DNA of 64,000 bases from Nitrospinaceae bacterium (GTDB taxonomy: Bacteria > Nitrospinota > Nitrospinia > Nitrospinales > Nitrospinaceae): NCBI GenBank assembly GCA_965237905.1, contig OZ250172.1:512001-576000 (forward strand), written 5' to 3'. Of the stretch, positions 17,366 to 24,132 are shown in pieces. Each line of letters starts with the position of its first letter. Position 1 is the first letter of the stretch. The position numbers were made by a program, and so were the translations under genes. The notes under the pieces are model-generated. The model did no database searches. It worked only from the letters and a program-made list of their open reading frames with translations, and was not told the origin of the DNA.

Positions 17366-17446
17366 TTAGCTTCTGAAGCCTTGTTCGTTGAGGATAGGAA
17401 TACCCAGTTTCTGGGCTTGGGTGGGTTGGCTTGCGGGGTCGGTACG
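17366..17446 (-). pseudogene. degenerate duplicate of the ligA 3' end (BRCT tail)
   Basis: reads RTDPASQPTQAQKLGIPILNEQGFRS* vs Lig[31 protein letters not shown]; 17384-17442 matches 22120-22178 at 47/59 nt. Confidence 0.8.
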
Positions 17447-17448
17447 GG

Positions 17449-17751
17449 TCAGTTATTTTTTTCGATGATCTGCTTCATTCTTTCTTTTGAATCCGGCTTC
17501 AGGGAGGCCTCAGGAGCCGTGTCGGAAACCTCTTTGTCCAGGCCTCGAGTCATTTTCCTGAGGGTTTCCAACTGAGCCCTATATTTCCTGCAATATTTAC
17601 ACAAGACCAGGTGGAATCCCATTCGCCAGCGCTTGAAAACAGGAAGATTGTGATCCATATTTTCGGAAACAAGCTCTGTCGTATCCTTACATTTGGACAA
17701 CGTCAAATCCAGGATAACGTCTCTTAATTTTTCTATGAAGGAAACCGCCAA
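17449..17751 (-). CDS. zinc-finger (zf-HC2) anti-sigma factor
   Basis: C..HLVLCKYC (HxxxCxxC); abuts the ECF sigma gene. Confidence 0.88.
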   Translation of the reverse strand: MAVSFIEKLRDVILDLTLSKCKDTTELVSENMDHNLPVFKRWRMGFHLVLCKYCRKYRAQLETLRKMTRGLDKEVSDTAPEASLKPDSKERMKQIIEKNN

Positions 17752-18321
17752 TTAATGATTCTCCGGTAAATGAACTTCGATACACTTTTTGAGATGATTC
17801 CGTGCCCGGTGAAGCATAACCCAAAGATTACTGGGAGTAATATCCAATTCTGAACACAGGGTTTCGGAATCGTATCCTTCAACTTCCCGAAGGACATAGA
17901 ATTGGCGAAGCTTGGGAGACAGGGTATCCATGCATCCTGAAAAAATTTGAAGAAGCTCCTTGTCAGCAACGGCTTTCTCAGGATCAATCCCCCAATGGGA
18001 AGAGAAGGACTGCCAATGTCCTTTGCCGTCAAAATCCGATTCACAAGGATCATGGTAGTCTTCCAGGCTCAGGCCGTACTTTTGATTTTTCTTTTTCTCC
18101 CGATAATGATCCATGATTTTGTTCTTCATGATACCAAAGAGCCCTGTTTTCTCTGAAGATAGTGCGGCAAACGAATCTTGCGCCTTCAACGCCGCCAGAA
18201 AAGTATTCTGAACAATATCCTCGGCATGCTCTTCATCATTGACCCGGAGCAGGGCAAACCGGAACATGCAGTCACTGTACCGTTCCACCCACTGGTGCGA
18301 GTTAATAGTCTCTCGATTCAT
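17752..18321 (-). CDS. ECF RNA polymerase sigma factor
   Basis: AEDIVQNTFL, KIMDHYR, LREVEGY, NLWVMLHRAR; start set at MNRETI. Confidence 0.9.
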   Translation of the reverse strand: MNRETINSHQWVERYSDCMFRFALLRVNDEEHAEDIVQNTFLAALKAQDSFAALSSEKTGLFGIMKNKIMDHYREKKKNQKYGLSLEDYHDPCESDFDGKGHWQSFSSHWGIDPEKAVADKELLQIFSGCMDTLSPKLRQFYVLREVEGYDSETLCSELDITPSNLWVMLHRARNHLKKCIEVHLPENH

Positions 18322-18649
18322 TTTCACTTTTAATCCCCCTCCCAAGGGCAAACGAAACTGATCATGTATGAAGTAACGGACTATTTAAACGATTGCGTGA
18401 ATTATAGACCTAAATCCTCTAATTCACAGGATTTTTGATAGCGACGCGGTCCCGGGGGAGGTTCATCATTCCAAACTGTACTTCATTAAAAAACCCCGCA
18501 GTGATGGGCACCAAGGTTTCCAGGTAGAATCTCTTTATTATTGGTGAGTTAGTGTTGTTGCGTTGGGTCCACCTCCCTCCCTTTTCCCGAGCCCTACCAG
18601 GATTTTGAGAAATTCGTTTCATACCTCCAGAAAGTTTTCGGCGCCGATT

Positions 18650-18678
18650 TGTAAGGATCAGAACCTCTCCTCCACTAA
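18650..18678 (+). promoter_or_regulatory. candidate ECF-type promoter for the globin-P460 cluster
   Basis: TGTAAGG...TCCACTAA ~65 nt upstream of the globin ATG; resemblance only. Confidence 0.3.
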
Positions 18679-18741
18679 TGCTCAACGCACGTTGAACAAT
18701 GACATTCCATTTTTCAATTTTAAATTCTGAGGGGGAAAATC

Positions 18742-19224
18742 ATGAATCTTAAAATAACCGAGCGAATGCATAGAGATACGAATTACCTGACCGCAGGCCT
18801 CGTCATGATGCTGATGTTGTGCATTACAGCATTCAGCATGCCGTCCACGGCCAGCGCTAAGGAGAAGTCCTTATACCAACGCCTCGGTGGCTACGACGCT
18901 ATTAGTGCTGTGGTTAATGAATTTGCCGATCGTCTTTTTGCGGACAAGAAGCTTGACCGCTTTTTTGGCGCTTTGAGTACGGACTCGCAGGTCAAATTCA
19001 AGCAATTTAATACCACGCTTGTCTGCGCGGTTACCGGAGGGCCCTGCACATATCTGGGACGTTCGATGACGACTGCGCATGAGGGCATGGGTGTGGATAA
19101 CACCAACTTCAATATTGTCGCAGGCCATTTAGCGGCCACGCTCGACAAATTTAAAGTTCCAGCCGCTGAGAAGAAAGAGCTTCTGGATATTATTGGGTCT
19201 CTGCGAAGCGCGATTGTAGAGTAG
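18742..19224 (+). CDS. group I truncated haemoglobin with N-terminal signal peptide
   Basis: SLYQRLGG, AVTGGPCTYLGRSM, proximal His in TAHEGM; hydrophobic leader ending ASA. Confidence 0.9.
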   Translation: MNLKITERMHRDTNYLTAGLVMMLMLCITAFSMPSTASAKEKSLYQRLGGYDAISAVVNEFADRLFADKKLDRFFGALSTDSQVKFKQFNTTLVCAVTGGPCTYLGRSMTTAHEGMGVDNTNFNIVAGHLAATLDKFKVPAAEKKELLDIIGSLRSAIVE

Positions 19225-19257
19225 AAAAAATAAATTTTAAAAGTGAGGAGAAAAATC

Positions 19258-19863
19258 ATGAACCTGAAAATAGCCAATCGAATCGGTTTTTTCCTGGGCG
19301 TTACCGCATTGGCGGTTGTCGCCTCCGGGATATATATTTCCAATACAATGGCCGCGGAAAAGATATCGCGGCATTACAAATTCGACGGAGCGGGGAAGCT
19401 GGTTCAGCCCACGGGTTATCGGCAGTGGGTTTTTGTGGGGTCGCCATTGACTCCCAATGACATGAATGACGGAAAGGCGGCCTTCCCCGAGTTCCATCAT
19501 GTGTACATTCATCCCGATGCCTTCGCGGTTTACAAGCGCACCGGAGCATTCCCGGACGGGACCATTCTTGTCAAGGAACTGCTGAGCGTTGGCAAAAAAC
19601 AAGCTCCCAGCGGCAAGGGGTATTTCAACGGTGATTTTATCGGTTTGGAAGCCACGATCAAGGATACCAAGCGATTCAAGAAGGAACCGGGGCACTGGGC
19701 TTATTTCAGTTTCACCACACCGATAGGACAGCCGCATAAAAAGAGCGCAAAGGCATTTTCAAAAACCAAATGCAACTTCTGTCACCAGGCGTTTGCGAAA
19801 GATGATTGGGTATTCACACAATACTATCCGGTCCTCCGTGCCGCCAAGCCGGGACGAAAATAA
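19258..19863 (+). CDS. cytochrome P460 family protein
   Basis: YRQWVFVG, TPNDMNDGKA, GTILVKEL, GYFNGDFIGLEA, C-terminal CNFCH, FTQYYPVL; RBS GAGGAG. Confidence 0.92.
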   Translation: MNLKIANRIGFFLGVTALAVVASGIYISNTMAAEKISRHYKFDGAGKLVQPTGYRQWVFVGSPLTPNDMNDGKAAFPEFHHVYIHPDAFAVYKRTGAFPDGTILVKELLSVGKKQAPSGKGYFNGDFIGLEATIKDTKRFKKEPGHWAYFSFTTPIGQPHKKSAKAFSKTKCNFCHQAFAKDDWVFTQYYPVLRAAKPGRK

Positions 19864-19922
19864 TAATTCATGATCGAATTTTTCAAAGAATCCGAAACGT
19901 TTTCAAATAAGGGGAAAACACC

Positions 19923-20312
19923 ATGAAAAAAATATTAATCACGATGGTTGCAATTCATTTCATGTGGGCAGGATGGGCCCTGGCGGATAGCGGAATCGCA
20001 GAAACGCATCGAGACGCCATTCAAACCGCAATGGCCAACCACATTAAAGACGTTTCACAAAAAAACGGCAACGGCATGTTCCCCATATATGACCCGGGCC
20101 AAAGGACAGTCGTTCAATTAAAGTTTGACCGGTTTCACGATAGCGTCGAGATCAAGGGAAGAAAGTATCCCTACTTCATCAGTTGTGCTGACTTTACAGA
20201 TACGAACGGGGTTAAATATGACCTGGATTTTCTGGTTTCAAAAAATCATGCAGTGGTGGCCGTATTGATCCATGCCATAAACAATAAAAAAACCAAGTAT
20301 GATATTCATTAG
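19923..20312 (+). CDS. hypothetical exported protein
   Basis: signal peptide ending ALA; RBS; co-oriented within the cluster. Confidence 0.75.
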   Translation: MKKILITMVAIHFMWAGWALADSGIAETHRDAIQTAMANHIKDVSQKNGNGMFPIYDPGQRTVVQLKFDRFHDSVEIKGRKYPYFISCADFTDTNGVKYDLDFLVSKNHAVVAVLIHAINNKKTKYDIH

Positions 20313-20351
20313 TAGAAAAGTGGATGGAGAAGCTTAGAAAGGAATGATTGA

Positions 20352-21209
20352 ATGAAAAATGTTGGCAGGAAGAAAACTCATAAGCGGCATTTTTATAAGT
20401 CATCGTTGGTTTTTCATGCGTTTACTTTTGGGGTATTCCTTGTCATTTTATTGGCCTCTTTGGTTAGCTTTGCTCATGAAAATTCCCAGTCCCGTCAGGA
20501 CCCTGCTCATAAAACGGCCAGTGATGAACAAAACCGATTGCACTGGGGTTATTTGGGAATCGAGGGGCCTGAACACTGGGGATTGCTCACTAAAAAATAC
20601 GCGACATGCGAAACCGGAAGCAAGCAATCGCCGATTGACATACCCACGAAAGGACTGAGTCATCGCCAGGAGACCCTGGATTTTCATTACAACACATCTG
20701 AACTTCATGAAATGAATAATGGGCATACGGTTCAGGTGTCTCACAAATCAGGATGCCATGTTGACATCAACAAGCGCGCTTATAATTTACGACAGTTTCA
20801 TTTTCATGAACCCAGTGAACACCATATCGATGGCAAAGCCTTTCCTATGGAAATGCATCTGGTCCATCAAGATGAAGCCGGACATATTCTCGTCATCGCA
20901 GTGATGATGGAAGTAGGTCCGGAACACCCTGTCATAAAAAACCTTTGGGATTGGCTCCCCGATCAAATCGGCAAGGAAACTTCAATTCCCTTGAGGGCCA
21001 GCCTCCGAGACGTGCTTCCTGAAAACACTCAACACTATACCTACTCTGGATCACTGACCACCCCACCCTGCTCTGAGGGAGTTCTGTGGCTGGTATTAAT
21101 AGAACCCATTAAAATATCTGAGCAGAGCTTGAGAAAATTTTCGGCGATTATCGGAAAGAATGCTCGCCCGGTGCAACCTCTGGGCAATAGACGCATAGAG
21201 AAAAATTAA
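20352..21209 (+). CDS. alpha-class carbonic anhydrase, exported
   Basis: QSPIDI, NNGHT, QFHFH, SEH, EMHLVH, GSLTTPPCSEGV. Confidence 0.95.
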   Translation: MKNVGRKKTHKRHFYKSSLVFHAFTFGVFLVILLASLVSFAHENSQSRQDPAHKTASDEQNRLHWGYLGIEGPEHWGLLTKKYATCETGSKQSPIDIPTKGLSHRQETLDFHYNTSELHEMNNGHTVQVSHKSGCHVDINKRAYNLRQFHFHEPSEHHIDGKAFPMEMHLVHQDEAGHILVIAVMMEVGPEHPVIKNLWDWLPDQIGKETSIPLRASLRDVLPENTQHYTYSGSLTTPPCSEGVLWLVLIEPIKISEQSLRKFSAIIGKNARPVQPLGNRRIEKN

Positions 21210-21231: not shown

Positions 21232-21945
21232 CTAGGATCGGCCTAAAATGCGGTCCAGGATGGGTTTCTTTCGGATCAGAAATCCATGCGGGGCAAACGT
21301 GAACCCGAACTTGTTCTCGCGCTTGGTGTCGTGGGTGTAGTCGTCGGGAAATTCCTTTTCATATTCCAGAATCGCTTCCATCGGCCCTTCCCCGAAATCC
21401 GGGTCCACCGGGTGCCCGTTGATGTTGCTGTCCTCCACCACCACGTAATCGCCGTGCTCCAGGACGGTGCGGAGCAGTTTCATTTCGGCCAGGACGTGGT
21501 CCTTGCGATGGTCGCTGTCGACAATGACAAACACCGGCCCCGGAAACTGTTTGCGCAACTCACGGATTCTGTCCGCCACCTGGGGCTCGGCACTGGAGGA
21601 GGTGAATATTTCGACGTGAGGATTGTTGCGGACATGTTCGTTGTATTTTTTAGGACTCATATTGTCCACGGTCAGGACTTTGGAGTTCGGATTGATCCGC
21701 TTCAAAATTTCTGAAAAAAACAATGTCGCTCCGCCCTTGTACGCTCCGAATTCGATGATGAGAGACGGTTTCAGTTCGCAAATGATTTCCTGATAATTCC
21801 ACATATCGGAAACCGACTTCAGACAGCGGACTCCCATGAATGTGGTCGTTTCCCAAACCTTGGTGTTGAAATACCAGATGTGATATTGTTCCGGAGCTTT
21901 CGGGTCAAAAGGCTTTTCCGTTTGCGCCACCGTTTCCTCCCTCAA
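21232..21945 (-). CDS. CmcI-family (cephalosporin hydroxylase-like) O-methyltransferase
   Basis: DMWNYQE, IIEFG..GG, DSDH, GDYVVVED. Confidence 0.88.
   Translation of the reverse strand: MREETVAQTEKPFDPKAPEQYHIWYFNTKVWETTTFMGVRCLKSVSDMWNYQEIICELKPSLIIEFGAYKGGATLFFSEILKRINPNSKVLTVDNMSPKKYNEHVRNNPHVEIFTSSSAEPQVADRIRELRKQFPGPVFVIVDSDHRKDHVLAEMKLLRTVLEHGDYVVVEDSNINGHPVDPDFGEGPMEAILEYEKEFPDDYTHDTKRENKFGFTFAPHGFLIRKKPILDRILGRS

Positions 21946-22089: not shown

Positions 22090-24132
<2,043 letters not shown>

What the first reader, a model, noticed from the sequence alone, without database searches (positions are those of the whole stretch)
17449..21209. ECF/zinc anti-sigma module with exported truncated globin, cytochrome P460, unknown protein and alpha-carbonic anhydrase
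Seen: an ECF sigma and soluble HxxxCxxC anti-sigma are divergent from four tightly co-oriented genes, each with a signal-peptide-like N-terminus. Known: zf-HC2 anti-sigmas often sense thiol oxidation; group I truncated globins act on NO/O2; P460 oxidises NH2OH and binds NO; alpha-CA handles CO2/H+. Inference: a redox-induced periplasmic system coupling reactive-nitrogen (NO, NH2OH, HNO2) handling to pH/CO2 buffering, with an uncharacterised 129-aa member. I do not know this combination as a described system.
Basis: partly seen in the sequence, partly recalled or inferred. Interest (0 to 1): 0.82.

Follow-up and report, generated by a model that had tools for sequence, protein, structure and literature searches.

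The report
Oxidant-switched haem kit in nitrite oxidisers
Four exported proteins (a cytochrome P460, an unusual globin, an uncharacterised protein and a carbonic anhydrase) sit behind a conserved promoter motif that also precedes methionine-repair genes, so they likely form a protein-oxidation stress kit in nitrite-oxidising bacteria, whose P460 is predicted to be able to turn hydroxylamine into nitrous oxide.

Summary
The six genes are real. New here: a motif TGTAAG-N18-ACTAA lies 93 nt before the globin. It matches the published Neisseria sigmaE promoter, occurs 6 times in the genome against 0.1 expected, and precedes the same genes in relatives even where they are split up. It also precedes exported MsrAB (19 of 28 genomes; controls 0 and 1). 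So the operon likely belongs to an ECF293-type Met/thiol-oxidation regulon, whose characterised members answer HOCl or H2O2; an NO-specific trigger is a rival, not shown. P460 plus the unknown protein is the fixed core (5 of 5 genomes in this phylum; 11 of 12 copies in Nitrospirales, where globin, anhydrase and another ECF recur). P460 keeps all three catalytic residues. The globin lacks TyrB10, so classic NO dioxygenase activity is doubtful. The unknown protein is predicted cystatin/NTF2-like with conserved His/Cys/Asp. Against dependence on this sigma: it carries a private Trp-to-Gly change, and a paralogue probably reads the same motif. No expression data. The scan noted a similar ECF-P460-globin module on other DNA (e1-6619846). 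New variant of a known kind.

The parts
17380..17442 (-). Remnant copy of the 3' end of ligA, marking the left edge of a probable insertion
   Evidence: 79% over 63 nt to 22116-22178, E 5e-10; reads as a degenerate ligase C-terminus with its own stop
17449..17751 (-). Soluble zinc anti-sigma (ZAS), C21...H47xxxC51xxC54
   Evidence: NF052368 60.1 bits, cut-off 50; residues
17752..18321 (-). ECF sigma factor of Neisseria sigmaE/ECF293 type, 189 aa
   Evidence: Pfam, TIGR02943-like; long sigma2-sigma4 linker and 3 Cys in the C-terminal part, as described for ECF293
18142..18144 (-). Codon 60 of the ECF: Gly where all relatives have Trp (region 2.3)
   Evidence: 7 of 7 other ECFs compared have W; 7 of 7 relative contigs covering 18144 read the Trp codon; contigs of X1/X2 equal the window
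18650..18678 (+). Predicted ECF promoter TGTAAG-N18-ACTAA, 93 nt before the globin
   Evidence: 6 exact sites in the genome vs 0.099 expected, only at spacing 18; invariant in 10 of 10 aligned upstream regions; matches the Neisseria sigmaE consensus
18716..18767 (+). Copy 1 of a 52-nt direct repeat (RBS plus first codons) shared by globin and P460; copy 2 at 19232-19283
   Evidence: 77% identity; relatives join 18725 to 19247/19251, i.e. lack the globin
18742..19224 (+). Exported group I truncated globin with AlaB10/PheE7/AsnE11, proximal His113 and a Cys95/Cys102 pair
   Evidence: PF01152; alignment to HbN; conservation in 119 homologues
19258..19863 (+). Cytochrome P460 of Nitrosomonas type with Phe76, Lys106, Glu131 and CxxCH
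   Evidence: best PDB hit 6e17, E 1e-53; residues defined in PMC11928373; F/K/E in 34 of 34 orthologues
19923..20312 (+). Uncharacterised exported 129-aa protein, predicted cystatin/NTF2-like fold, conserved H72, C88, D90, D100, D102, H117
   Evidence: 440 clusters at 50% identity; conservation; model pLDDT 82.9; best Z 8.5, rmsd 2.4, 73 aligned; no Pfam family
20352..21209 (+). Exported alpha-carbonic anhydrase with intact zinc-ligand motifs
   Evidence: PF00194 E 2e-49; PDB 4c3t E 1e-61; HFH, SEH, EMHLVH, LTTPPC motifs present

Best explanation
The four exported genes likely form one transcript from a predicted ECF293-type promoter and would be the haem arm of a wider cell-envelope oxidation response in a nitrite-oxidising bacterium. 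Inferred steps: (1) an oxidant that attacks thiols and methionine (hypohalous acid or peroxide by analogy; nitrosants are not excluded) ejects zinc from the anti-sigma and frees the sigma; (2) this sigma, or its 49% identical paralogue elsewhere in the genome, transcribes this operon together with MsrAB, YHS, DUF547, DUF3179 and a disulfide oxidoreductase; (3) P460, whose Lys-haem cross-link forms with peroxide, matures under the same stress and oxidises hydroxylamine or binds NO; (4) the AlaB10 globin binds NO or O2 reversibly in a hydrophobic pocket rather than acting as a classic NO dioxygenase; (5) the 129-aa protein is a P460 accessory that uses its His/Cys/Asp site to bind a metal or sense the oxidant; (6) the anhydrase equilibrates periplasmic CO2/HCO3-/H+. 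Shown: genes, residues, motif, its enrichment and conservation, gene neighbourhoods. Not shown: transcription, trigger, any activity, any binding.
For: Motif: 6 exact sites vs 0.099 expected; 0-1 at each of 20 other spacings; all six lie 61-93 nt before a co-oriented ORF. It follows the genes when they are rearranged: before P460 in G025, G028, G029, G065, before the globin in G025, G028 and L048, before the anhydrase in G001, G008. It matches GTMAGBWTT-N12/13-CGTCTAAH of Neisseria sigmaE (PMC2893595, passages). Top matrix hits in the genome precede DUF3179, DUF547, YHS, a pyridine nucleotide-disulfide oxidoreductase and an N-terminally hydrophobic MsrAB. Upstream of msrAB it scores >14 in 19 of 28 genomes, vs 0 of 28 on the opposite strand and 1 of 28 with a shifted spacer. 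Characterised relatives control Msr genes and answer HOCl/H2O2 (PMC7826278 supplement passages; PMC7907618 abstract and passages; PMC12139993 passages). P460 residues and peroxide-dependent maturation (PMC11928373 passages). P460-unknown adjacency 5 of 5 in the phylum and 11 of 12 in Nitrospirales. Host has NxrA (7b04, E 0) and NirK.
Against: No RNA holder was available, so nothing is shown on expression. The trigger is borrowed from pathogens; the Neisseria system did not respond to the oxidants tested (abstract of PMC2893595). The local sigma has W60G and no motif upstream of itself (best score 8.6). The close globin of G029 has no motif upstream. G047, G056 and G065 carry the close ECF beside unrelated genes. 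P460 binds NH2OH weakly (Kd 9-30 mM). 17 of 26 Nitrospirales genomes with a close P460 lack the close unknown protein. In Nitrospirales the neighbours include Crp/Fnr regulators and a NirK, which fit NO better. The genome's Cld-family protein best matches the haem synthase model, so no internal HOCl source is evident.
Confidence: 0.55

Rival explanations
1. The module is a dedicated reactive-nitrogen kit: NO or nitrosating species release the anti-sigma zinc, P460 removes NH2OH and NO as N2O, the globin buffers NO and the anhydrase limits local acidification.
For: Catalytically complete P460; NxrA and NirK in the genome; Crp/Fnr regulators divergent from P460 at L296, L300, L301, L302 (Pfam) and a NirK at L295; recurrence in two nitrite-oxidiser lineages.
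Against: The shared regulon is Met/thiol repair; none of the family papers read reports NO as the signal (no occurrence of 'nitric' or 'nitric oxide' in PMC7907618 and PMC12139993); the globin lacks TyrB10.
Confidence: 0.25
2. The genes are a loose, mobile collection of cassettes that share a promoter type; the neighbouring ECF is redundant or crippled, the core paralogue does the work, and the four products do not act together.
For: Patchy: close P460 in 5 of 102 genomes of the order over four families; G+C 0.456 vs 0.505 genome and 0.56 flanks; ligA 3' duplication; the promoter drives the anhydrase alone in G001/G008; globin separable through a 52-nt repeat; W60G; paralogue-level ECF in 76 of 102 genomes.
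Against: The same four genes reassemble in a different order under a different ECF in Nitrospirales (L294 has ECF-P460b-P460-unknown-globin-anhydrase); the three genomes with the close globin all hold close P460, unknown and ECF.
Confidence: 0.14
3. The regulon answers metal or metalloid stress (Cu, As) and the unknown protein is a metal binder.
For: The paralogous ECF sits with an ArsR regulator and an ArsM-like methyltransferase (below cut-off); His/Cys/Asp conservation in the unknown protein.
Against: No metal exporter or chaperone among the top 30 matrix hits by inspection; haem proteins and an anhydrase fit poorly.
Confidence: 0.06

Closest known systems
ECF293 systems: Neisseria sigmaE/MseR, Haemophilus RpoE2/HrsE, Pseudomonas FroR/FroI
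   Same: Soluble ZAS anti-sigma at +1, promoter GTAAG...(T/A)CTAA at the same spacing, msrAB under the motif, exported targets.
   Different: Targets here are a P460, a globin, an anhydrase and a new protein family; two paralogous sigmas; host is a nitrite oxidiser. The window sigma was not classified with the ECF Hub models. That FroR equals PA3285 is recalled.
Cytochrome P460 of Nitrosomonas europaea and Nitrosomonas sp. AL212 (A131E)
   Same: Phe76, Lys106, Glu131, CxxCH; best PDB hit is the activated A131E variant 6e17; His in place of NeP460 Arg44, as in AL212.
   Different: Host has no HAO-family or AMO match; gene lies in an ECF-type operon. P460 genes in nitrite oxidisers were already noted without function (PMC12213059, PMC6311188).
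Group I truncated haemoglobins (Mycobacterium tuberculosis HbN)
   Same: 2/2 globin family, proximal His, polar amide at E11.
   Different: Signal-like N-terminus in 114 of 115 scorable homologues, Ala at B10, Phe at E7, Cys95/Cys102 pair. That HbN needs TyrB10/GlnE11 for NO dioxygenation is recalled.
Azospira SigF/NrsF-MrpX-YedYZ hypochlorite system (PMC4436054, search listing only)
   Same: ECF-controlled periplasmic Met repair; this genome has a Met/His-rich 98-aa exported peptide and molybdo-oxidoreductases near motif hits.
   Different: Different ECF group with a membrane anti-sigma (recalled); no haem module.

Membership tests
ECF293 | Soluble zinc-finger anti-sigma at +1 | tested here: met
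   feature from PMC7826278 supplement
ECF293 | Extended sigma2-sigma4 linker and three Cys in the sigma4 part | tested here: met
   about 50 residues between the Pfam domains; three Cys in the C-terminal 70 residues
ECF293 | Assignment by the group HMM | not testable with these tools
   no ECF Hub models; TIGR02943 147.6 bits is below its cut-off
Neisseria sigmaE-type regulon | Promoter GTMAGBWTT-N12/13-CGTCTAAH before msrAB and targets | tested here: met
   the -10 here is (C/T)(G/A/C)ACTAA, one base off
Neisseria sigmaE-type regulon | Transcription depends on this sigma and is released by oxidants | not testable with these tools
   no RNA data; W60G and a paralogue leave the cognate sigma open
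Active cytochrome P460 | Cross-link Lys, distal carboxylate, capping residue, CxxCH | tested here: met
   K106, E131, F76, C172/C175/H176
Active cytochrome P460 | Cross-link formed and NH2OH oxidised | not testable with these tools
   needs purified protein
Group I truncated globin | PF01152 match, proximal His F8 | tested here: met
   H113 in 119 of 119 homologues
HbN-type NO dioxygenase | TyrB10 with GlnE11 (requirement recalled) | tested here: not met
   B10 is Ala in the window and in 113 of 119 homologues, Tyr in none; E11 Asn in 116. E-helix positions rest on an ungapped alignment anchored at GGP.
Alpha-carbonic anhydrase | Three zinc His, shuttle His, Glu/Thr gate | tested here: met
Cystatin/NTF2-like fold (129-aa protein) | Helix packed on a curved antiparallel sheet, significant structural match | tested here: inconclusive
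   best Z 8.5 (rmsd 2.4, 73 aligned) to a designed cystatin-fold protein, then Z 6.9-5.5 for NTF2/cystatin chains, near the tool's stated background

The most novel reading that the evidence does not exclude
Nitrite oxidisers of two phyla carry an inducible periplasmic haem pathway in which a peroxide-matured P460, chaperoned by a new His/Cys/Asp protein and fed NO by an AlaB10 globin, converts hydroxylamine and NO from neighbouring ammonia oxidisers into N2O, making them an unrecognised N2O source and overturning the view that they cannot transform hydroxylamine.
Probability: 0.2. Interest if true: 0.8.

Novelty: new variant of a known kind. Interest (0 to 1): 0.58.

Why it matters
It places cytochrome P460, whose role outside ammonia oxidisers is open, in a defined regulon with a predicted promoter, which makes the question directly testable. 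A 2025 review states that nitrite oxidisers cannot transform hydroxylamine (PMC11928373, section 4); these genomes encode a P460 with all catalytic residues, so N2O formation by them can be tested. It also defines two uncharacterised protein groups: exported AlaB10 globins and a His/Cys/Asp family tied to ECF systems. The module is rare (5 of 102 genomes in the order), which limits its ecological weight.

Tried and rejected
RNA evidence: no RNA holder listed. Complex prediction of P460 with the 129-aa protein: tool not available, no result. Foldseek against the PDB and a model of the globin were not obtained. Pfam on 98 family members gave no shared family. A profile search of the PDB gave only TIR-domain hits at E 0.03-0.06, rejected because the predicted secondary structure differs. 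The ESM Atlas returned unnamed clusters only. The sigma-70 promoter scan was uninformative (12 sites vs 6.6 +/- 2.5). The reversed-pattern control hit 2 times in this genome and 0-7 times elsewhere, so raw counts across genomes do not discriminate; the spacing and strand controls were used instead. Autoregulation of the window ECF by the motif: not found. Chlorite dismutase as an internal HOCl source: rejected for now, best match is the haem synthase model below cut-off. The joints 21214 to 17380 are not circles; they reflect relatives in which ligA follows the anhydrase. No tRNA in the window. AMO search had no ringing control, so that absence is weak; the HAO-family search rang in G029 but not here. 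The cmcI-like methyltransferase gene is on the opposite strand and missing at this locus in G001/G008, so it was left out of the module. Literature searches listed no paper describing this combination; the library lacks most subscription papers and only one supplement was searched.
Full report
Observation. The six ORFs are present as described. Families: ECF sigma, anti-sigma above the NF052368 cut-off, PF01152 globin, PF16694 P460, PF00194 anhydrase, and no family for the 129-aa protein. All four + strand proteins have hydrophobic N-termini. Orthologues favour ATG 19258 for P460 and ATG 18321 for the sigma. The genome encodes a full-length NxrA (E 0 to 7b04) and a NirK above cut-off; the HAO family was not found here while the same search rang in G029. 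Homologue labels point to Nitrospinota. I treat the host as a nitrite oxidiser.

TGTAAG-N18-ACTAA lies at 18650-18678. The genome has 6 exact sites against 0.099 expected, and 0 or 1 at each of the 20 other spacings from 10 to 30. All six are 61-93 nt before a co-oriented ORF. Both boxes are invariant in 10 of 10 aligned upstream regions, chosen because they carry the motif before P460, globin or anhydrase. The published Neisseria sigmaE consensus is GTMAGBWTT, 12-13 nt, CGTCTAAH, the same spacing (PMC2893595, passages). The sigma shows the features given for ECF293, the group that holds Neisseria sigmaE (PMC7826278 supplement, passages).

The regulon. A matrix built from 37 sites of other genomes and contigs ranks, in this genome, DUF3179, this operon, DUF547, a site inside the paralogous ECF gene, a YHS protein, a disulfide oxidoreductase, a Met/His-rich 98-aa peptide and an N-terminally hydrophobic MsrAB among its top ten hits; two of the ten have no clear target. 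With the spacer shifted the matrix gives 0-7 hits above 16 against 16 unshifted, so lower hits include noise. Upstream of msrAB the score exceeds 14 in 19 of 28 scorable loci (the best 30 of 74 genomes were fetched, 2 too short; one site was in the training set), against 0 of 28 on the opposite strand and 1 of 28 with a shifted spacer. A second, distant P460 family has a score of 15 or more within 1.5 kb in 16 of 25 loci, without a control. Characterised relatives control Msr genes: Haemophilus RpoE2 rises with HOCl and H2O2 (PMC7907618, abstract and passages); Pseudomonas FroR answers HOCl but not H2O2 (preprint PMC12139993, passages); Neisseria sigmaE did not respond to the oxidants tried.

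Co-conservation. Among 102 genomes of the order, a close P460 (78-100%) occurs in 5. Among 120 of the phylum the close unknown protein occurs in the same 5, always directly after P460. G029 has sigma and anti-sigma divergent from P460, unknown, a second P460 and an anhydrase, with the globin elsewhere and no motif before it. G025 and G028 have sigma, anti-sigma, motif, globin at one locus and motif, P460, unknown at another. G065 has no close globin. In same-genus G001 and G008 the same promoter is fused to the anhydrase and the other five genes are missing from the locus. In 351 sampled genomes of a second order (Nitrospirales by the title of the seed record), the close unknown protein has 12 copies in 9 genomes, 11 directly after a close P460. 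Of 10 such loci read in full, 6 have the globin next, 4 an anhydrase within about 7 kb and 5 an ECF of another group upstream; L294 has all of them in a row. A close P460 occurs in 26 of the 351, so 17 lack the close unknown protein.

The proteins. P460 has Phe76, Lys106 and Glu131, the three residues the review PMC11928373 ties to activity (passages and section 4 part 1); they are kept in 34 of 34 orthologues. Its best PDB match is the activated A131E variant. The same review reports peroxide-dependent cross-link formation and a weak NH2OH Kd of 9-30 mM. The globin has Ala at B10 (113 of 119 homologues, none Tyr), Phe at E7 (116), Asn at E11 (116), Cys95 (119) and Cys102 (117); 114 of 115 scorable homologues have a hydrophobic leader (119 of 735 hits examined). 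A hydrophobic ligand pocket and a disulfide are inferred. The unknown protein belongs to a family of 440 clusters. In 98 aligned members H72 (94), C88 (92), D90 (85), D100 (91), D102 (96) and H117 (93) are conserved. The model (pLDDT 82.9) resembles cystatin/NTF2-like folds at modest Z. Distant members sit directly before an unrelated ECF in 48 of 76 loci with room to tell, so the family is tied to ECF systems twice.

History. The module is G+C-poor (0.456 vs 0.505) and is bounded on the left by a decayed copy of the ligA 3' end, as expected after insertion into that gene; no integrase was sought. A 52-nt repeat gives the globin the RBS and first codons of P460; 10 of 119 globin homologues carry this extension, and two relative contigs in run X7 join the promoter straight to P460. 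The window sigma has Gly60 where 7 of 7 compared ECFs and 7 of 7 relative contigs have Trp. That this Trp matters for promoter melting is recalled. A 49% identical paralogue with a similar sigma4 recognition segment is in the genome, and ECFs of this type are in 76 of 102 genomes, so it may drive the promoter.

Mechanism and rivals. Best: an oxidant-released ECF293-type sigma transcribes the operon as the haem arm of an envelope Met/thiol-oxidation response (0.55). Rival: a reactive-nitrogen kit (0.25), helped by Crp/Fnr regulators and a NirK beside Nitrospirales P460 genes. Rival: loose cassettes sharing a promoter (0.14). Rival: metal stress (0.06). The first two share their anatomy and differ in the trigger.

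Novelty. P460 genes in nitrite oxidisers are already noted without function (PMC12213059 and PMC6311188, passages). Searches listed no paper on this combination or on the promoter in these bacteria; unseen supplements and subscription papers may hold it. An earlier AI note of this scan describes an ECF-controlled P460 plus exported globin in another genome (e1-6619846); I confirmed the pairing only in the lineages above. Verdict: a real, co-conserved module, a new variant of a known regulatory kind, with an untested trigger; interest 0.58.

Noticed in passing
G000:C1:2286627 (L137), inside the paralogous ECF gene: The motif lies within the 3' part of the paralogous sigma gene, overlapping its coding sequence, about 70 nt before its anti-sigma; exact copies fall inside the same gene in at least six relatives. 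Possibly a built-in negative feedback promoter, or a by-product of the codons.
   Followed up: partly
L059-L062, L064, L065, L068, L010, L011 and many of L150-L229: A three-gene unit of the unknown-protein family, a short ECF and a single-pass anti-sigma-like protein with no Pfam match recurs in many phyla (48 of 76 loci). It may be an undescribed three-component ECF system.
   Followed up: partly
G000:C1:313904-314197 (L141:254-547): Exported 98-aa peptide with repeated Met/His/Lys-Glu-Gly-Ser segments behind a near-match of the motif; no Pfam or NCBIfam family. Possible oxidant scavenger.
   Followed up: partly
L009:1805-2419, L044, L045, L046, L289, L294, L296: A second P460 family with the cross-link Lys but Phe at the position of Glu131 in the alignment is commoner in these bacteria than the active-type P460 and often lies beside YHS genes or in tandem with it.
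   Followed up: partly
window 21232-21945: CmcI/rhamnosyl O-methyltransferase-like gene between the anhydrase and ligA, absent at this locus in G001 and G008.
   Followed up: no
L129, L130: G025 and G028 carry two anti-sigma copies flanking the globin; in G028 the first copy appears split into two frames.
   Followed up: no
L071-L078: Distant members of the unknown family have N-terminal EHP/HPEHP repeats, and some lie beside transglutaminase-like genes, which hints at metal binding.
   Followed up: no
G000:C1:988000-999000: A run of long, repetitive ORFs that look like one very large secreted adhesin-like gene broken into consecutive frames.
   Followed up: no
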